The notes beneath the pieces were generated by a model, which saw only the letters and a list, made by a program, of their open reading frames with translations, was not told where the DNA came from and searched no databases. From IMG/VR virus record IMGVR_UViG_2534682003_000005, positions 1 to 35,501 of that record: a stretch of DNA of 35,501 nucleotides. One strand, given 5' to 3'. This stretch comes from a virus. Taxonomy: Duplodnaviria; Heunggongvirae; Uroviricota; Caudoviricetes. Within the stretch, counting starts at the first letter, position 1; every line of letters begins with the position of its first letter. Made by a program: the position numbers and the translations under genes. Below are positions 2,588 through 8,936 of the stretch, piece after piece.

Positions 2588-2940
2588 TACGCCTCCGATG
2601 TAACAGTCGTTATTCCATAAAGAGTGTCGATTTCAGCGGAAAACATGACACGTCGGGTCGTGGTATCCACCGTCGTATTGAAAGAGAGGATTGATTTAAC
2701 GCCCTGCGTTTCCAGAATGCGCTTACGGATCGCCAGGTTGTAGGTTTCCGGCTTCTGCCTGCCCAGCACGGACTGGATCCATGGAGTCCCTTCGGTGGTG
2801 TCGAGAAACCATTGCCCATACCACAATTCGAATCGCGTTTTTACCGCCTGCGCCACGGCCTCCGGTGAGTTAATCAGCCAGGTGTCATCACCGCTGCCAA
2901 AGGTGTAATCACCATCGGCGTCTTCACGTCTGTATCGCAT
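2587..2940 (-). CDS. Baseplate protein, gpW / Mu gp46-like (117 aa)
   Basis: Small protein between V-like and J-like genes, start-stop coupled. Confidence 0.55.
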   Translation of the reverse strand: MRYRREDADGDYTFGSGDDTWLINSPEAVAQAVKTRFELWYGQWFLDTTEGTPWIQSVLGRQKPETYNLAIRKRILETQGVKSILSFNTTVDTTTRRVMFSAEIDTLYGITTVTSEA

Positions 2941-3692
2941 CAGTTTACCCCATCGGTATTGCTTCCACCGCGCTGAACACCGCCATGAGTGTGCGTATCA
3001 TCGATTGGCTTGCCGTTAGCCTTAACGCTCCCCAAGAACTCAACAGCACCAGTGATTTTTGAAGCCACACCAGAAACAACAGACCCCACCATGCCCCCCA
3101 TCCAGGTTAACAGGCCATGAATGGTTACTTTCTCAGAAAAATCAGCCAGAGGGGCAACCACATCAAGGCCCCCCGGAGCGACAATTTTAATTTTCCTGGT
3201 ATCAGGATTAAGCTCAAAATAGGTGCTGCCGTCATCACTACGCAACTGTGTGGCACTGGTATTAATACCGCTAATCTTCCTTGCCTGCGACTGGGGACCG
3301 ACAATACAAAACGCATCCGATAAATCATGCATTCTGTCATCGACCGGCTCCTGTATCCCGCCACTCTGCCACCAGAAATCAATACAACGATCGGCAAAAA
3401 TCACCAGGCATTCATCGCCGGCTTCCACCGGGAAAGTTAACGTGCAGCCGCCGCCGCGCGGGAATACCACTGGTACATCCACCAGCAATGGGTAATTTTG
3501 GGTAATGCGGTTGCCGTCATTATCCTTTTCAACCGAACGGATCGCAGGCTGCACAACCGCTGTCACCGCATCAGGATCGAATGACTGGACGATGCCAGGC
3601 AAAGCAACACGTATCTGGTTCTTTGTTGTTTCCCGTTCAGATTTGAATGTTTCGGCAAGGTCGCCGCTGCGGGTCTGGTCAGATACTGCCAT
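2940..3692 (-). CDS. Baseplate assembly protein V / spike-like (250 aa)
   Basis: N-terminal region resembles Mu gp45 / P2 gpV family; Gly-rich C-terminus. Confidence 0.6.
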   Translation of the reverse strand: MAVSDQTRSGDLAETFKSERETTKNQIRVALPGIVQSFDPDAVTAVVQPAIRSVEKDNDGNRITQNYPLLVDVPVVFPRGGGCTLTFPVEAGDECLVIFADRCIDFWWQSGGIQEPVDDRMHDLSDAFCIVGPQSQARKISGINTSATQLRSDDGSTYFELNPDTRKIKIVAPGGLDVVAPLADFSEKVTIHGLLTWMGGMVGSVVSGVASKITGAVEFLGSVKANGKPIDDTHTHGGVQRGGSNTDGVN

Positions 3693-3709: not shown

Positions 3710-3734
3710 GCAAAAAACCCGCCGAAGCGGGTTT
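3710..3734 (-). terminator. Intrinsic terminator downstream of the membrane-protein moron
   Basis: Minus-strand hairpin AACCCGC-TTCG-GCGGGTT followed by a T-tract (TTTTGCTTT). Confidence 0.6.
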
Positions 3735-3749
3735 GAAAGGATGTATGGA

Positions 3750-4322
3750 TTATTTAGGTTTCTTCCTACCATAAACAAACACTGTAGTTAATCCTACGAG
3801 ATCTAAAGTAGCAAGAGTACCTGCGAACCAAGTGTTACCGCGATTAGCAAAAAACGCAGCCATTATAAGCACTACCATTGCAATGCAAAATCCCATCCAT
3901 TGCCCACGTTTGTCGCGTGAAACCGCACCAAGTAATGCATCACTTTGCGTCTTATGCCTATGCTCTTGCTCTTTTTCGGTTAGCCTGAAAATTCTCTCAG
4001 CGCCGCCGGGTAATATTTGATTATATTGTAAGAGCATAGCAGGAGGTGGGAGTGGTCCCTGAAAAGACTCCTGCTGAAACATGGCAATAACCTTCGGGTT
4101 CTTAGAAACTCTCTCAAGAAGTTCAGGTGTTAACTTCGATTTTAGCTCAGGATCAAGGTTGGCAACTGCAGACAGCTTTTCCACTACTTCCTGAGACTCA
4201 TCATATTCCGAGGAATCAATATCTTCGTCGATACCATCCGAATCAGGAACGGCTTTTTGCGACGCTTTGTTTTCCTGATGCTTTTTGAGAACGGCCGCCT
4301 GCTTGCGGGGTTTTGAACTCAT
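3750..4322 (-). CDS. Moron: hypothetical protein with acidic N-terminus and two C-terminal transmembrane helices (190 aa)
   Basis: ORF with predicted TM segments (FCIAMVVLIMAAFF, LATLDLVGLTTVFVY); inserted between gpD-like and gpV-like tail genes; followed by its own terminator; looks AT-richer than flanking tail genes by eye; recalls a predicted-membrane-protein DUF family from memory, unverified. Confidence 0.6.
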   Translation of the reverse strand: MSSKPRKQAAVLKKHQENKASQKAVPDSDGIDEDIDSSEYDESQEVVEKLSAVANLDPELKSKLTPELLERVSKNPKVIAMFQQESFQGPLPPPAMLLQYNQILPGGAERIFRLTEKEQEHRHKTQSDALLGAVSRDKRGQWMGFCIAMVVLIMAAFFANRGNTWFAGTLATLDLVGLTTVFVYGRKKPK

Positions 4323-4482
4323 ACCTGATAACTCTGTTCATGTCACTTGCAATGACTTTAACATCACTTCTTATTGCCCGACAATCAGATCCAGAAGCAG
4401 CATATTGCCAGTAATCTGTAGTCGGCATAATGTCCATAACACTACCGGCAGCGGCTAAGTAACGATTAACGATTTTCCTCAT
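4243..4482 (-). CDS. Hypothetical small protein (79 aa from internal ATG), overlaps start of downstream moron gene
   Basis: ORF with strong Shine-Dalgarno (GGGAGGGG) 4 nt before ATG at 4482; 80-nt out-of-frame overlap with the 3750-4322 gene leaves it uncertain. Confidence 0.3.
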   Translation of the reverse strand: MRKIVNRYLAAAGSVMDIMPTTDYWQYAASGSDCRAIRSDVKVIASDMNRVIRYEFKTPQAGGRSQKASGKQSVAKSRS

Positions 4483-4647
4483 ATCCCCTCCCATAGTGAA
4501 CATCAGTGGAGCGCAGAGTTTACCTTTAAGGTAAAGTGTAGACAACTACTGTGTACAGATGGTTCAAAAAATGCGTTAACCAGTATTAATTTGTTAAAAT
4601 TAGCGCAATTGGCAACAGTTCATCCATAATATTATGGACGTCAAAAA

Positions 4648-4992
4648 TCATCGCCCAGCCACTTTTTTACACGGGAAAGATCCGATGATTTTCGGTGCAT
4701 CCATGCTGTTCTGCAGAAGCTGGACGTTCAGGAAACGCGTTTCGGTGCCAGGGCGACGAATGTATTCAAAGCCGTAGTTGTTACCGTCTTTGGCAGGCAT
4801 AAGCCCCATATCAATCTTAATGCCATCAGCACCAAGATTTGTAATTTTCTGAGATGTGACGCGTTCACCGTTAATCATGTCCATTTCCCCCAACCTTGCA
4901 GTGATGGTGTAAGGTCCACAATAAGCGGTGTAACCGCTTGCAGATGCCCCAAATGACATAAAGGCAACAATTAAAATGGCTAAGGCTTTCAC
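4648..4992 (-). CDS. Hypothetical secreted/periplasmic protein with signal peptide (114 aa)
   Basis: N-terminal signal peptide MKALAILIVAFMSFGASASG; GTG start 2 nt after gpD-like stop with GGGGG SD-like run upstream; two Cys. Confidence 0.55.
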   Translation of the reverse strand: MKALAILIVAFMSFGASASGYTAYCGPYTITARLGEMDMINGERVTSQKITNLGADGIKIDMGLMPAKDGNNYGFEYIRRPGTETRFLNVQLLQNSMDAPKIIGSFPCKKVAGR

Positions 4993-4994
4993 AT

Positions 4995-6056
4995 TTACCC
5001 CCGGTTAAGCGAGTCCTGAGTGCGGAGATCCGCCGCGCCACGCGCTTCGCACATCATATCCATGTACCACGCCTGGCCCCTTGTATCGCCAGTGTACATA
5101 ATCCCGCGCACAATATAAACGCCATCCGTTGCGATGCTGGCAGGTTGTGCTGTGGTGCCGCTTAGCGTGATATTTCCGTCCGTGTTCTGGTCGGTGATCT
5201 GACCACCAGCCATCGCAATATCGTTGTTCGACAACGCGGTACGATAGACGGAAGCCTGATCCAGCTGAATGAGCCCGTTAACCCGGATGTTCGGATTAAT
5301 AAGAGCGCGGACGTTTACGCCGTTGCCGATGGTCTGCTGCGGCATGCCGATAAGCCCGGTGGCGCTGCTGAGCACAATCGCGTCGTGAACATACTCGTTA
5401 TTCGCCACCATCTGGCGCTGACCGTCCACAAATTGCCATGTTGCGCCACATTGTCCGGCCACGTTATCCATAAGATGCCGTGTCATGCCGAACAGCACCC
5501 GCCCTCGAGGGAATACGGTAGCAGGCATTTCAGGCGTCAGTCCTTCGGTCGCGCCTTTGGCCTCAAAGTCTTTCATCAGCGCACGGTTCACATCTGCGAC
5601 CGTGTAACCGGCCGCCAGCGTCTGCGAGGTTATACTGGTGGCAAATGCCAGATCCGTATCTGCTGCCTGAATCAGGACATAGGAATCAATAGGGCTGTCT
5701 TTTCCTGTGACCGAGTAGCGAATTTCTCCGCTGAAAATCAGCCCGTAGTTGCGGCCATCACTCTGGCCCACATCTGCCGCGTCGACTTCGCGCACGGTCA
5801 CGACGTCGCTTGCCGCCACCTCCGGCGCGATACCGTCGTAACCGGCAATCAGCCGCACTTTCGAAAACTCCTGCCCGGTAATTCGGTTCACAGTATCTGC
5901 CGAGAGGTTATAAATTTTGATAGTCCCTACCCGGGACGCGCTGCTGATGTTGAACCAGTCGATCGTAAAGGTGACTTTGAAATCACTTAGCTCAATTCCC
6001 TGACCGTTCCCGTCCACAAGCTGCAGCTCGAAATGTCTCATCCAGTTCTGTGACAT
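4995..6056 (-). CDS. Tail protein, late-control-D (gpD)-like / baseplate hub (353 aa)
   Basis: N-terminal pattern typical of gpD family (LQLVDGNGQGIELSDFKVTFTIDW); position after tape measure and small tail proteins. Confidence 0.6.
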   Translation of the reverse strand: MSQNWMRHFELQLVDGNGQGIELSDFKVTFTIDWFNISSASRVGTIKIYNLSADTVNRITGQEFSKVRLIAGYDGIAPEVAASDVVTVREVDAADVGQSDGRNYGLIFSGEIRYSVTGKDSPIDSYVLIQAADTDLAFATSITSQTLAAGYTVADVNRALMKDFEAKGATEGLTPEMPATVFPRGRVLFGMTRHLMDNVAGQCGATWQFVDGQRQMVANNEYVHDAIVLSSATGLIGMPQQTIGNGVNVRALINPNIRVNGLIQLDQASVYRTALSNNDIAMAGGQITDQNTDGNITLSGTTAQPASIATDGVYIVRGIMYTGDTRGQAWYMDMMCEARGAADLRTQDSLNRG

Positions 6057-6058
6057 GC

Positions 6059-6361
6059 TTACTCCGTTGATACCAGTAAATGACTGCGACCGCCCAGATC
6101 AGTTTTCGTGGGATAATCCTGTGTGTTGTCATCGCAGACCACCACCAGCTTAAAACCAAGCCCCATACAGGCGTACTGCGCCAGCAGATCAGCGCCAGTG
6201 ACGAGAGGAATACCGGAGATTACCGGCTCTCCTCTGTCGTTCTGCAGGTCCATAATCCAGTAAGGATCGCGCCATATGATGCTAATCTGCCAAGTGACAC
6301 CACCCAGGACGATGCTGAACTGCTGGTTGTCCGCTGTCAGCGGAATTTCCTGAATTGTCAT
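6059..6361 (-). CDS. Tail protein (100 aa), gpX/gpU-position
   Basis: Start-stop coupled ORF between tape measure and gpD-like gene. Confidence 0.4.
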   Translation of the reverse strand: MTIQEIPLTADNQQFSIVLGGVTWQISIIWRDPYWIMDLQNDRGEPVISGIPLVTGADLLAQYACMGLGFKLVVVCDDNTQDYPTKTDLGGRSHLLVSTE

Positions 6362-6948
6362 TAGCCGCCTCCCAGTAATGACGCCACGTTACCCGTAATG
6401 CTTTTCAGCAGTGAAGTATCTGGAGGCTTTGTGGTTTTGTTGCCGCTGTTCTGTACCGCCGACGTGCTGGCCCCTTCCTTCATGTTGGTTTTATCCGCGA
6501 CGGTAATCTGCTGTGTCCGGGAGATAATGACCTCCCTCAGGGTGAGGACGGCGGACAGGACGTTTTCGGTTGTCTTGTCCGTCGTCACTTCCAGCGCCCG
6601 GATCAACATGTTGCTGTACAGCCGTTTACCGGTTACCACATCGAAGGGGATACGGCTTTCCTGCAGATCCAGTAGCTCCTGATACGTCTGCTGAGGACTC
6701 AGGCCGAGCAGGCTGGTAGCCGTCAGATTACTGGCAAAATCCAGCAATGCGCCGCCACCGGCGAAACCAACCTCCATCACCACTTCTGACGGTTTTTTAT
6801 AGGCATGATCAGCGACAGCGGCCCCGACCTCTACCGGATGCTCTGTTATTTCAAGCATATCTGTATGCTTCTCTGAAATAACAATACTGGGAACAATCAT
6901 TCCTATTTTTCTGCTCTGCTGATGAAAAAGTGTAGAGAGAATATCCAC
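6361..6948 (-). CDS. Tail protein (195 aa), immediately downstream of tape measure
   Basis: Start-stop coupled ORF; position only. Confidence 0.4.
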   Translation of the reverse strand: MDILSTLFHQQSRKIGMIVPSIVISEKHTDMLEITEHPVEVGAAVADHAYKKPSEVVMEVGFAGGGALLDFASNLTATSLLGLSPQQTYQELLDLQESRIPFDVVTGKRLYSNMLIRALEVTTDKTTENVLSAVLTLREVIISRTQQITVADKTNMKEGASTSAVQNSGNKTTKPPDTSLLKSITGNVASLLGGG

Positions 6949-8936
6949 TAACCCACCCTCACCTGATTACTTCGCATGACCTGAGCATTTGCAGACTGTT
7001 GCCGACGTGCAACCTCATTACCGACAGCGTGCGGATCTCCGCCACCGTAAATGTGGTAAGTATTTTGCTGGTTAACCTCTGTCATTTTGCCACTAATTCC
7101 CGCCACGGCAGCCTTATTAATCAGCTCTCGAGAATAGATATTTCTTCCATTTTCATGCTGGATAATGCTGCTCATCAATGCTGACATGGTTTGCGGATCG
7201 CTCATATTCAGGGCAGCCCGGGGATCCACTCCCAGTCGTTGCGATACAGCCCTGATATACGCAGTTGTGTTGTTATTATCAGACGCAGGTGCCCAGGTAG
7301 AGATAATTTTCTCCACACTGTTTATTCCCCGTCCGGCGTACAGCATTAACTGACGAGCAAGAGCCCGTAATCCATCAAAAGCAGTTTCAAATCTGGCAAA
7401 TCGCCCGCCCGGGCGTTCAAGAGAAGCCCCTGCCTGACCAGCAAAATTAAGGTTTCCCGGATTGTTATTCCGTTCTCCTCGTTTCGTAGCCTGTGCATAT
7501 TGTTCCGGCTCATCATCACCAAACCAGCCGCGTACCGTCCGGCCCACACTGCGGGGATCGAATCCCCAGTGCTCTTTAATCCAGTCGGCAGTACTGTTAG
7601 CGCTGTCTGTAACCATCGGCATCGCTGACGGATTTTCGCTGCCCTGATTAAGTATCTGTTTGCCGATGCTGACGGCATCAGCCCAGCGGCCATCTTTGAT
7701 AGCGTTGAGCAGGTCGGCGATCATGTTCAGCATTTTGCTGAATTCGCCCATCTGGTCGATGAAGTTGCTGAAATCCCACTTCAGGGACCATGATTTGGGG
7801 TCAATATTGAGCAGTTTCGCCAGCGCTTTCACCAGTTCATTAACAGACCCTTTCAGGTCACGAACCATCTTCAGCGCGGCATCGACCTCCGGCTTCCACT
7901 TGCCCCAGTCAATCAGGCTGTCGCCGCCTTCCTTCCAGGTCTGATAGTCCTCCCACAGAAGGGCAATCCCCGCCGCCAGCGCGGTAATGAGGCCAATCGG
8001 CGACATCCAGAACGTACTGTTCAGAATGCGCAGCGCAATCGTCAGCGCGCCAAACAGCGAGATGAGCTCCCGCGTTTGCTTATCCAGCGATTGCCACCAG
8101 GTGATAAGGCTGGATGTTCCCTCAATTAGCCTGAAGAACAGCCGCCCGATGATGTCTCCGAGCGCCAGAATGCCTTTTATGGCTTTCGTCAGGGTCTGCT
8201 CGATGCGCGGGAAGTTATCGAGGATGTGGCGGCGCAGTGTGTCCAGCGAACCCGCCAGACCACCAGCAAGATTAGAGCCGATTTTGTCACGGGCCATACC
8301 TGCCATCGCGCCGAACTCGCGCAGGGAGGTCATGAATTTGTTGGAGCTTCTGGCCGCCTCGTCAGCATTGAAGCCGATAGCTTTCGCCATTGCGCTGTAC
8401 TGCCCGGAGAAATCACCCACACCCCGGCGCATCGCCATGAGGGTATTTTCGTCAATGCCCAGCATCTGCGCATACTGGTTAGCCCGGTAATACGGCATGC
8501 TGCTGAGCTTCTGTCCGACACCCGTAAAAATAGCGGCCATGTCGCGCATGTTGCCGCTGGCGTCACGGGTCTGTACGCCCAGGCGATTCAGAAAGCCTTC
8601 TGCACCGGGATTGTTACGAATAAACCGGGAGAGGCTTTCCAGAGAAGATCGCGCAGCGTCCACGCTGCCGCCAATCTGCGAAACCGCATAGCCAATAGAC
8701 TGAATCCCCTGAACCGTCGCGCCGGTGCGCTGTGACGCCCAGTAGAGATTATCCAGACCGGAGGCGATCTTGGCCGTGAAGGCCACCACGGACAGCGCAG
8801 CTCCTTCAACAGCCAGCCCCATTTTGATGACATTTGTAGTTGTACCGGCGAGGACAGAACCGAATTTTTTCGCGCCTGCATCATCCACACTGAAGCCAAG
8901 CGAGACAAGGAAATCTTTAATAGTTTCAGCGTTCAT
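6948..8936 (-). CDS. Tail tape measure protein (about 662 aa from ATG at 8936)
   Basis: Large Ala/Gly-rich, helix-rich protein downstream of the chaperone genes; ATG at 8936 with GGAGAGAGG SD (the ORF track extends to a TTG at 8957). Confidence 0.8.
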   Translation of the reverse strand: MNAETIKDFLVSLGFSVDDAGAKKFGSVLAGTTTNVIKMGLAVEGAALSVVAFTAKIASGLDNLYWASQRTGATVQGIQSIGYAVSQIGGSVDAARSSLESLSRFIRNNPGAEGFLNRLGVQTRDASGNMRDMAAIFTGVGQKLSSMPYYRANQYAQMLGIDENTLMAMRRGVGDFSGQYSAMAKAIGFNADEAARSSNKFMTSLREFGAMAGMARDKIGSNLAGGLAGSLDTLRRHILDNFPRIEQTLTKAIKGILALGDIIGRLFFRLIEGTSSLITWWQSLDKQTRELISLFGALTIALRILNSTFWMSPIGLITALAAGIALLWEDYQTWKEGGDSLIDWGKWKPEVDAALKMVRDLKGSVNELVKALAKLLNIDPKSWSLKWDFSNFIDQMGEFSKMLNMIADLLNAIKDGRWADAVSIGKQILNQGSENPSAMPMVTDSANSTADWIKEHWGFDPRSVGRTVRGWFGDDEPEQYAQATKRGERNNNPGNLNFAGQAGASLERPGGRFARFETAFDGLRALARQLMLYAGRGINSVEKIISTWAPASDNNNTTAYIRAVSQRLGVDPRAALNMSDPQTMSALMSSIIQHENGRNIYSRELINKAAVAGISGKMTEVNQQNTYHIYGGGDPHAVGNEVARRQQSANAQVMRSNQVRVG

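What the first reader, a model, noticed from the sequence alone, without database searches (positions are those of the whole stretch)
4648..4992. Signal-peptide protein translationally coupled to the tail hub gene
Seen in sequence: a 114-aa ORF starts with GTG 2 nt after the gpD-like stop codon, with a G-rich SD inside the gpD 3' end. It carries a classical Sec signal peptide (MKALAILIVAFMSFGASASG) and two Cys. A periplasm-targeted protein made with tail proteins is unexpected for a virion component assembled in the cytoplasm. It could be a lysis/entry accessory, an exclusion factor, or part of the adjacent moron.
Basis: partly seen in the sequence, partly recalled or inferred. Interest (0 to 1): 0.45.

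Follow-up and report, generated by a model that had tools for sequence, protein, structure and literature searches.

The report
Exported small protein beside tail hub
A real, conserved prophage gene sits right after the tail-hub gene and encodes a small protein that is almost certainly exported to the periplasm and is not a building block of the tail; what it does there is untested, most plausibly blocking or modulating phage entry, so it is a moderately interesting member of a known kind of phage accessory gene.

Summary
Window 4648-4992 (minus strand) is a 114-aa gene whose GTG lies 2 nt after the baseplate-hub stop, with GGGGG in the last hub codons. The window is an E. coli prophage, and NCBI annotates the same CDS as hypothetical.

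The family is narrow and uncharacterised: PHROG 3443, no Pfam, NCBIfam, PADLOC or PDB sequence match, Enterobacterales only. It is under strong purifying selection (dN/dS 0.01-0.2).

Export is well supported. The N-terminus varies in sequence but keeps signal-peptide character. Two Cys are invariant in the mature part. One relative is a lipoprotein fusion, and orphan copies sit in the Mixta chromosome.

The mature part models (pLDDT 92) as a generic 8-stranded beta-barrel with no specific functional match.

All 159 complete loci have the order hub-ORF-spike. The slot after the ORF holds variable cargo, so the ORF is not part of the adjacent moron. The same tail architecture exists without it (Pam3, BP63, PSTCR3, A785.1), which argues against an essential structural role.

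An apparent co-variation with the tape measure failed on 153 loci.

Best guess: a periplasmic accessory binder, most plausibly for superinfection exclusion. The function is inferred, not shown.

The parts
4648..4992 (-). CDS of the 114-aa exported protein (called SP114 here; phrog_3443; WP_001816141.1). GTG start, TGA stop.
4933..4992 (-). Codons 1-20: Sec-type signal peptide (n-region MK, h-region ALAILIVAFMSF, c-region GASASG). Cleavage is predicted after residue 18, 19 or 20.
   Evidence: Sequence. Signal-peptide character is conserved while the sequence varies, in alignments A1/A2 and in 116 unique homologues.
4651..4932 (-). Mature domain, about 94 aa: predicted 8-stranded up-and-down beta-barrel. 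The conserved loops are INGE(R/K)VTSQK, LMPA(K/R)DGNNYGF and LNVQLLQNSMDAPKIIGSFPC.
4918..4920 (-). Codon of Cys25. It is invariant or nearly so across the family and lies in the first strand of the barrel.
4669..4671 (-). Codon of Cys108. It is invariant or nearly so across the family and lies in the last strand. It is the inferred disulfide partner of Cys25, because the first and last strands close the barrel.
   Evidence: The disulfide itself is inferred.
4998..5002 (-). GGGGG Shine-Dalgarno-like run inside the last hub codons (CGG GGG TAA), 5 nt upstream of the GTG.
4995..6056 (-). Upstream baseplate hub gene (Pam3 gp19 / E217 gp41 type). Its stop codon lies 2 nt before the SP114 start. 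Its last ~50 codons travel with the SP114 allele.
3715..4647 (-). Context, not part of the gene: the variable cargo slot between SP114 and the spike gene. In this window it holds an AT-rich spacer, an unannotated 79-aa ORF (4243-4482), a DUF2335 membrane protein (3750-4322) and an intrinsic-terminator-like hairpin (3715-3734).

Best explanation
SP114 is a non-structural accessory protein of a temperate contractile-tail phage.

Shown:
- It is a real gene under purifying selection.
- It is fixed immediately after the baseplate-hub gene, in an arrangement that allows translational coupling. I infer from this that it is made with the late tail proteins.
- It carries a Sec-type leader.
- Its mature 94-aa part is predicted with high confidence to be a small soluble 8-stranded beta-barrel with two invariant Cys.
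- The same tail architecture is built without it in other phages.

Inferred:
- It is exported by Sec, cleaved by signal peptidase I, and disulfide-bonded in the periplasm (Cys25-Cys108, closing the barrel).
- It acts there as a binding or blocking protein.

The most likely job is protecting the infected or lysogenic cell envelope from incoming phage. That would mean superinfection exclusion, or anti-re-adsorption at the periplasmic step of tail penetration and DNA entry. It would work like T4 Spackle or HK97 gp15 without being related to either. Its target is probably a conserved feature of the tail tip or of the host envelope, not an allele-specific tail part.
For: Gene reality:
- PGAP CDS, PHROG hit, 393 homologues, dN/dS 0.01-0.22.

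Export:
- Leader features are conserved in 109-113 of 116 unique homologues, while the leader sequence is the least conserved part.
- Exactly two Cys lie in the mature part in 113 of 116. They sit in the first and last barrel strands.
- The relative P0144 is a fusion behind a lipoprotein-type leader (...VLSGC) and is still encoded directly after the hub.
- Stand-alone chromosomal homologues with leaders lie between yciY and yciI/tonB. One is from Mixta gaviniae.

Not structural:
- The window's module maps one-to-one onto the Pam3 baseplate, whose solved structure is complete with gp17-gp24 and has hub gp19 directly followed by spike gp20 (PMC9942802).
- Hub is followed directly by spike in BP63, PSTCR3 and A785.1.
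- There is no PDB sequence hit at E <= 10.
- There is no significant match to predicted viral structures: none at E <= 0.001, and the best is a phage lipoprotein at E = 0.09.

Accessory or foreign character:
- GC is 47% against 56% for the hub and 54% for the tape measure.
- The allele is exchanged independently of the tail proteins. It is 57% identical to vB_EcoM-689R2, whereas hub, plug, Dit, spike and wedge are 95-99.6% identical.
- It sits next to a cargo hotspot.
- All phage records I inspected that carry it are temperate or induced prophages.

Precedent for periplasmic or envelope exclusion proteins, some encoded in tail operons: PMC7677548 (Spackle), PMC3594210 (HK97 gp15), PMC9586334 (T5 Llp).
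Against: - No functional test exists.
- No homology or specific structural similarity to any known exclusion protein was found.
- No sigma-70-like promoter was found upstream and no terminator downstream. Expression from a repressed prophage is therefore not supported, and the gene may be made only late in lytic growth.
- No co-variation with tape measure, spike or hub body was found across 153 loci. Allele-specific self-exclusion would predict such co-variation.
- The very stable position next to the hub across 28-40% identity could instead mean a functional tie to baseplate assembly.
- A dedicated signal-peptide predictor was not run.
Confidence: 0.4

Rival explanations
1. Periplasmic inhibitor of a peptidoglycan hydrolase, working like PliC/MliC/PhiA or Ivy. 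It would bind the tail-borne lytic domain at the C-terminus of the tape measure, or the phage endolysin. This would protect the wall of the producing cell or tune lysis.
For: - It is a periplasmic, disulfide-containing small barrel.
- Related tape measures carry an SLT domain, and PGAP names a 'lytic transglycosylase' in related E. coli tail clusters.
Against: - No member matches Pfam MliC, even at E <= 10.
- The SP114 allele does not track the tape-measure C-terminal domain (AMI 0.24-0.28, the same as background).
- vB_EcoM-689R2 has a 100% identical tape-measure C-terminus but only a 57% identical SP114.
Confidence: 0.15
2. Host-benefit cargo unrelated to phage entry. It would be a small periplasmic ligand- or protein-binding barrel (lipocalin- or avidin-like) that changes envelope physiology, stress tolerance or host interaction of the lysogen.
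For: - Chromosomal orphan copies exist outside prophages in Mixta.
- GC is low.
- The closest fold matches are ligand-binding barrels.
- Alleles move independently of tail genes.
Against: - There is no own promoter or terminator, and it is coupled to a late structural gene, so lysogenic expression is doubtful.
- The mature protein has no Trp. From my own knowledge, avidin-type biotin binding depends on several Trp residues.
- A random cargo gene would not be expected to hold its position next to the hub at 28-40% identity, including in a marine phage.
Confidence: 0.2
3. Tail or assembly component. The hydrophobic N-terminus would be a membrane-active or anchoring helix of a minor virion protein (hub- or tape-measure-associated) or of an assembly factor, not a cleaved leader.
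For: - Gene order is invariant inside the baseplate core genes, and translational coupling to the hub is conserved in 153 of 159 loci.
- The position is kept in distant relatives.
- The hub C-terminal ~50 residues co-vary with the allele (AMI 0.80).
Against: - The solved homologous baseplate (Pam3) needs no such protein.
- Several phages with this architecture lack the gene.
- A lipobox fusion variant and chromosomal orphans exist.
- The leader sequence is poorly conserved while the mature part is well conserved.
- Physical linkage over about 150 nt is enough to explain the hub-tail co-variation.
- A Sec leader would remove the protein from the cytoplasm, where tails assemble.
Confidence: 0.07

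Closest known systems
T4 Spackle (Sp), a periplasmic superinfection-exclusion protein (PMC7677548)
   Same: It is a small phage-encoded protein (about 100 aa) with a signal peptide. It acts in the periplasm against the tail tip of incoming phage. This is the working model proposed here.
   Different: - There is no sequence similarity: the PDB-wide profile search found nothing at E <= 10.
- The fold is reported as helical (my own knowledge), against a beta-barrel here.
- Spackle is an early gene not linked to tail genes and has a known target, the gp5 lysozyme. The target here is unknown.
HK97 gp15 and other envelope-acting morons in tail operons (PMC3594210; lambda lom, cor and P2 Z/fun from my own knowledge)
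   Same: - It is an accessory envelope protein inserted among tail genes.
- Its GC differs from that of its neighbours.
- It is present or absent among phages with the same tail.
- It has bacterial homologues outside prophages.
   Different: - gp15 is an inner-membrane protein with its own promoter and terminator, and it is expressed from the prophage.
- SP114 is soluble and periplasmic, has no detectable promoter or terminator, and is translationally coupled to the hub gene.
PliC/MliC/PhiA periplasmic lysozyme-inhibitor barrels
   Different: - There is no Pfam MliC match.
- Sequence identity in the structural alignments is 6-9%.
- Many unrelated barrels score better.
T5 Llp and Cor-type receptor-blocking lipoproteins (PMC9586334)
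   Same: It is a phage-encoded secreted protein encoded next to tail or receptor-binding genes, with a proposed role in preventing (re)infection.
   Different: - Those are outer-membrane lipoproteins with a lipobox.
- SP114 has none (GASASG-YTAYC). Only the fusion relative P0144 carries one.

Membership tests
Sec/SPase I secreted proteins | Tripartite leader: basic n-region, hydrophobic h-region of 10-15 residues, small residues at -3/-1 | tested here: met
   - Window sequence: MK / ALAILIVAFMSF / GASASG.
- Among 116 unique homologues, 109 have a positive n-region, 111 a hydrophobic core and 113 a -3/-1 site.
- SignalP and DeepTMHMM were not available.
Sec/SPase I secreted proteins | No lipobox Cys at +1 and no twin-arginine motif | tested here: met
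   There is no L-x-x-C lipobox and no RR motif in residues 1-24. The first Cys lies 5-7 residues after the predicted cleavage site.
Moron (Hendrix/Juhala sense, as described in PMC3594210) | GC content different from flanking genes | tested here: met
   GC is 47.1%, against hub 55.7%, tape measure 54.2% and spike 51.7%.
Moron (Hendrix/Juhala sense, as described in PMC3594210) | Own promoter and terminator, allowing expression from the repressed prophage | tested here: not met
   - No sigma-70-like site lies upstream on the minus strand, and no terminator-like site lies between 4545 and 4648.
- The downstream spacer fold has z = 0.52.
- The start lies 2 nt after the hub stop.
- The scans are simple consensus scans, so weak signals could be missed.
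Moron (Hendrix/Juhala sense, as described in PMC3594210) | Extra DNA relative to related phages with the same module | tested here: met
   Hub is directly followed by spike in Pam3, BP63, PSTCR3 and A785.1.
PliC/MliC lysozyme inhibitors | Sequence membership (Pfam MliC profile or family motifs) | tested here: not met
   Neither the window protein nor any of the 32 family members has a Pfam hit to MliC at E <= 10.
PliC/MliC lysozyme inhibitors | 8-stranded beta-barrel fold | tested here: met
PliC/MliC lysozyme inhibitors | Inhibition of a lysozyme or lytic transglycosylase | not testable with these tools
   This needs an enzyme assay.
Avidin family | Biotin-binding residues (several Trp lining the pocket; my own knowledge) | tested here: not met
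T4 Spackle family | Sequence or structural homology to Spackle | tested here: not met
Virion baseplate component | Homologue present in a solved baseplate of the same architecture | tested here: not met
   - The Pam3 baseplate is complete with gp17-gp24.
- The E217 cap and nut components do not include the ORF between hub and tip.
- That ORF in PB1 is unrelated and has no leader.
Virion baseplate component | Detected in purified particles | not testable with these tools
   The SEN34 paper reports no virion proteomics.
PADLOC-listed anti-phage defence proteins | Match to a defence-system profile | tested here: not met
   There is no hit at E <= 0.1.

The most novel reading that the evidence does not exclude
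SP114 may be the enterobacterial representative of a recurrent but unrecognised theme: contractile-tail phages with the Pam3/E217-type baseplate repeatedly place a small periplasm-targeted protein next to the hub gene.

Three unrelated leader-bearing ORFs occupy this neighbourhood:
- the SP114 family;
- Burkholderia phage Magia gp021 (phrog_38062);
- the Providencia phage PSTCR3 ORF between plug and hub.

If this reflects function, these proteins would form a class of hub-linked periplasmic gatekeepers. They would act on the tail-tip, hub or tape-measure complex of incoming phages at the moment it crosses the periplasm. That would be a new, general exclusion step for myophages.
Probability: 0.15. 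Interest if true: 0.6.

Novelty: new member of a known kind. Interest (0 to 1): 0.33.

Why it matters
- The family is common in Enterobacterales prophages (E. coli, Klebsiella, Salmonella, Citrobacter, Enterobacter, Pantoea, Photorhabdus).
- It has no annotation in any profile library tried here (Pfam, NCBIfam, PADLOC; PHROGs lists it as unknown function).
- If it blocks phage entry from the periplasm, it would affect prophage-mediated resistance to therapeutic phages in Klebsiella and E. coli. It would also add a structurally new exclusion protein.
- If it does not, it is still a clean case of an exported protein hard-wired to a structural tail gene. It also marks a cargo-insertion hotspot between hub and spike that could be mined for defence genes.
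- SEN34_20 is annotated without its leader, which illustrates how GTG/TTG starts hide such proteins.

Tried and rejected
1. Co-variation with the tape measure.
- Five loci suggested that the SP114 allele tracks a middle segment of the tape measure.
- On 153 non-identical loci this failed. Pearson r of pairwise distances was 0.07-0.34 for all tape-measure windows, which is lower than for the hub (0.37). Allele-class AMI was 0.17-0.23, at or slightly below the level of the other tail segments (about 0.2-0.3).
- The only strong association was with the last ~50 hub residues (r = 0.51, AMI 0.80). I attribute this to physical linkage.

2. Library searches.
- Pfam, NCBIfam and PADLOC gave nothing. 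Pfam on 32 members at E <= 10 gave only scattered single hits.
- The PDB sequence profile search gave nothing.

3. Structure searches.
- BFVD (viral structures): no significant hit. The best was a Serratia phage lipoprotein at E = 0.09.
- afdb50 was unavailable.
- The first structure model, with the leader and a shallow alignment, was mediocre (pLDDT 70). It was replaced by a mature-domain model with a deeper alignment.

4. A conserved partner gene downstream: none. There are 199 cargo clusters, and the commonest is in 51 of 159 loci.

5. Homology between SP114 and the leader-bearing ORFs of Magia and PSTCR3: none. hhalign aligned only the leader.

6. The PB1/E217 ORF between hub and spike: unrelated, with no leader.

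7. Promoter and terminator signals flanking the ORF: none.

8. A degenerate-pattern search with the divergent alignment A2 failed for lack of conserved stretches.

Full report
**Observation**

The ORF lies on the minus strand at 4648..4992 and encodes 114 aa.
- Its GTG (4992-4990) follows the TAA of the upstream gene (4997-4995) after two bases.
- A GGGGG run (5002-4998) sits in the last two sense codons of that gene.
- The product begins MKALAILIVAFMSFGASASG and has two Cys, C25 and C108.

The window holds 91 ORFs of at least 90 aa, so length alone proves nothing. Four things make it a real gene:
- The window's first 12 kb are 100% identical to a prophage of E. coli MEI1A-0323, where PGAP annotates exactly this CDS as hypothetical protein WP_001816141.1.
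- The protein matches phrog_3443 (unknown function) end to end, E = 2e-46.
- It has 393 homologues in the 5.8-billion-protein collection.
- dN/dS of the mature part against relatives at 74-98% nucleotide identity is 0.01-0.22.

**Surroundings**

The genes around it form a contractile-tail module of the Pam3/E217 type:

| Gene | Window coordinates |
|---|---|
| Tape measure | 6948-8936 |
| Dit-like tube initiator | 6361-6948 |
| Pam3_gp18 plug | 6059-6361 |
| Hub | 4995-6056 |
| SP114 | 4648-4992 |
| Low-GC spacer with a DUF2335 membrane protein | 3750-4322 (DUF2335 gene) |
| Spike | 2940-3692 |
| Sheath initiator | 2587-2940 |
| Baseplate J | 1388-2587 |
| Wedge1 | 711-1391 |
| Fibre | 1-711 |

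**The family**

- It is narrow. A profile search of 1.84 billion representatives found only 38 clusters at 50% identity, several of them fragments.
- The three long multi-repeat proteins on that list are spurious matches to a GSDGNFYG repeat.
- Genome hits are all Enterobacterales, apart from one contig labelled Chryseobacterium: Dryocola, Pantoea, Citrobacter, Enterobacter, Raoultella, Photorhabdus, Shimwellia and others.
- There is no Pfam, NCBIfam or PADLOC match and no PDB sequence relative at E <= 10.

**Export**

Across divergent members (25-81% identity) the N-terminal ~20 residues vary freely but keep signal-peptide architecture. The mature part keeps its motifs and both Cys.

Among 116 unique proteins from 159 loci:
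- 109 have a positive n-region.
- 111 have a hydrophobic core.
- 113 have small residues at -3/-1 before the first Cys.
- 113 have exactly two Cys in the mature part.

The leader is the least conserved segment: 0.40 against 0.66 and 0.84 mean top-residue frequency.

Three independent observations fit export:
- P0144 carries the domain at the C-terminus of a protein with a lipoprotein-type leader and is still encoded right after the hub.
- P0153, P0158 and P0159 are stand-alone chromosomal genes with leaders, between yciY and yciI/tonB. One is from Mixta gaviniae.
- The two invariant Cys lie in the first and last strands of the predicted barrel. That position would let a disulfide close it. The disulfide is inferred.

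I could not run a dedicated predictor.

**Structure**

- With the leader removed and a deeper alignment, AlphaFold2 gives pLDDT 91.8 and pTM 0.80: an eight-stranded up-and-down barrel.
- Nothing significant appears among predicted viral structures.
- The fold suits a periplasmic binder or inhibitor but does not name a function.

**Synteny**

- In SEN34, Mulock and vB_EcoM-689R2 the gene directly follows the hub. SEN34_20 is annotated from an internal start and so lacks its leader.
- In 159 loci with the full gene set the order is always tape measure, Dit, plug, hub, SP114, spike, sheath initiator, J.
- In 153 of them the start lies within -4..+5 nt of the hub stop.
- A 28%-identical relative (P0147) and the lipoprotein fusion keep this position.
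- In a marine relative (P0140) the gene sits between plug and hub instead.
- The DNA between SP114 and the spike is 60-2108 nt and holds 199 different ORF clusters. In six loci it is essentially empty.

So SP114 is a constant unit next to a cargo hotspot. It is not part of the DUF2335 moron.

**Is it structural?**

- The Pam3 baseplate, solved by cryo-EM, is complete with gp17-gp24. These map one-to-one onto the window's genes, and hub gp19 is followed directly by spike gp20 (PMC9942802).
- BP63, PSTCR3 and A785.1 also go straight from hub to spike.
- In E217 the ORF between hub and tip is not among the modelled virion proteins. Its PB1 counterpart is unrelated and has no leader.

Tails of this architecture are therefore built without SP114.

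**Evolutionary behaviour**

- GC is 47%, against 56% for the hub and 54% for the tape measure.
- Against vB_EcoM-689R2 all baseplate proteins are 95-99.6% identical but SP114 is 57% identical. Against SEN34 the reverse holds: SP114 96%, hub 84%, spike 67%.
- This first suggested co-variation with a middle tape-measure segment. A scan over 153 non-identical loci rejected it: r = 0.07-0.34 for the tape measure against 0.37 for the hub, and allele-class AMI about 0.2, at or slightly below the level of the other tail segments.
- Only the last ~50 hub residues track the allele (r = 0.51, AMI 0.80). Linkage over about 150 nt explains this.
- Two co-resident prophages in Pantoea stewartii carry different allele classes, 55% identical. 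This is a single anecdote.

**Expression signals**

No sigma-70-like promoter lies upstream and no terminator downstream. The nearest terminator-like hairpin (3715-3734) follows the DUF2335 gene. The simplest reading is late expression together with the tail genes. Lysogenic expression is not supported, but simple scans cannot exclude it.

**Interpretation**

I am fairly confident (about 0.8) that SP114 is an exported, disulfide-bonded periplasmic accessory protein and not a virion part. The function is inferred.

- **Preferred (about 0.4 for the whole statement):** a periplasmic blocker of phage entry or re-adsorption. It would work like T4 Spackle (PMC7677548) or HK97 gp15 (PMC3594210), with a target that is conserved and not allele-specific.
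- **Rival, host-benefit cargo (0.2).**
- **Rival, hydrolase inhibitor of PliC/PhiA type (0.15).** It rests on fold class only and lacks co-variation with the lysin domain.
- **Rival, minor tail or assembly component (0.07).**

**Novelty and score**

Envelope-directed accessory genes inside tail operons are a known kind. This is an uncharacterised family of that kind. Its unusual points are the strict coupling to the hub gene, the lack of its own signals, and the conservation of position. Two unrelated leader-bearing ORFs near the hub in Magia and PSTCR3 hint at a recurrent theme, but n is tiny. Interest is moderate, 0.33.

Noticed in passing
window 3715-4647 (minus strand); loci L016-L199: The interval between SP114 and the spike gene is a cargo-insertion hotspot. 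Across 159 loci it is 60-2108 nt long and holds 199 ORF clusters. The commonest is a 154-aa protein in 51 loci, and TPR-like proteins of about 250 aa occur in 24 loci each. It may be worth mining for defence genes.
   Followed up: partly
window 4243-4482 (minus strand): An unannotated 79-aa ORF (MRKIVNRY...) has a GGGAGGGG ribosome-binding site and matches phrog_26284 (E = 2e-12). It overlaps the start of the DUF2335 gene (3750-4322). PGAP does not call it. Together with the terminator-like hairpin at 3715-3734, it looks like a two-gene moron.
   Followed up: partly
L201 3457-3828 (Burkholderia phage Magia, reverse strand); L200 1963-2436 (Providencia phage PSTCR3): Two unrelated small ORFs with classic signal peptides and two Cys each lie beside the hub gene of the same tail architecture. 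Magia gp021 (phrog_38062) lies between hub and spike. The PSTCR3 ORF lies between plug and hub. Neither shows sequence homology to SP114 by hhalign.
   Followed up: partly
L005 5001-5357; L009 4001-4327; L010: Stand-alone chromosomal homologues of SP114 (25-27% identity, with leaders and both Cys) lie between yciY and yciI/tonB. They occur in Mixta gaviniae and in two ENA metagenome contigs, with no phage genes nearby.
   Followed up: partly
L011/L012 4001-4879: P0144 is a 292-aa protein with a lipoprotein-type leader (VLSGC), an unknown N-terminal domain of about 190 aa and the SP114 domain at its C-terminus. It is encoded directly after the hub. The tape measure in that locus carries a Pfam SLT domain.
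   Followed up: no
window 6948-8936 compared with L001, L002, L003, L006, L011: The tape measure is a three-part mosaic. The N-terminal third, a middle segment after the hydrophobic stretch, and the C-terminal (lysin-like, NNPGN motif) domain are exchanged independently between relatives. For example, vB_EcoM-689R2 is 95-100% identical at both ends but 16-24% in the middle.
   Followed up: partly
L001 4001-4342 (SEN34, NC_028699.1 15497-15838): SEN34_20 is annotated from an internal ATG (77 aa) and so lacks the signal peptide. tblastn aligns it from residue 1 of SP114, starting 3 nt after the hub stop.
   Followed up: yes
window 29331-29735 (+): A second leader-bearing ORF ([19 protein letters not shown]..., phrog_2651, unknown function) starts 4 nt inside the end of the cI-like repressor gene (28702-29334). 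It is therefore probably co-expressed with the repressor in lysogens. A SieB homologue lies nearby at 30411-30965 (phrog_6399, E = 7e-114).
   Followed up: partly
window 4995-5150 (minus strand); alignment of 153 loci: The last ~50 codons of the hub gene co-vary with the SP114 allele (AMI 0.80), while the rest of the hub does not (AMI about 0.3). The recombination boundary of the SP114 unit therefore lies inside the hub 3' end.
   Followed up: yes
L013/L014 (TARA marine metagenome contigs): In a marine relative the SP114 homologue (P0140, 34% identity) sits between the plug and the hub, not after the hub. This is a different insertion point within the same baseplate core.
   Followed up: no
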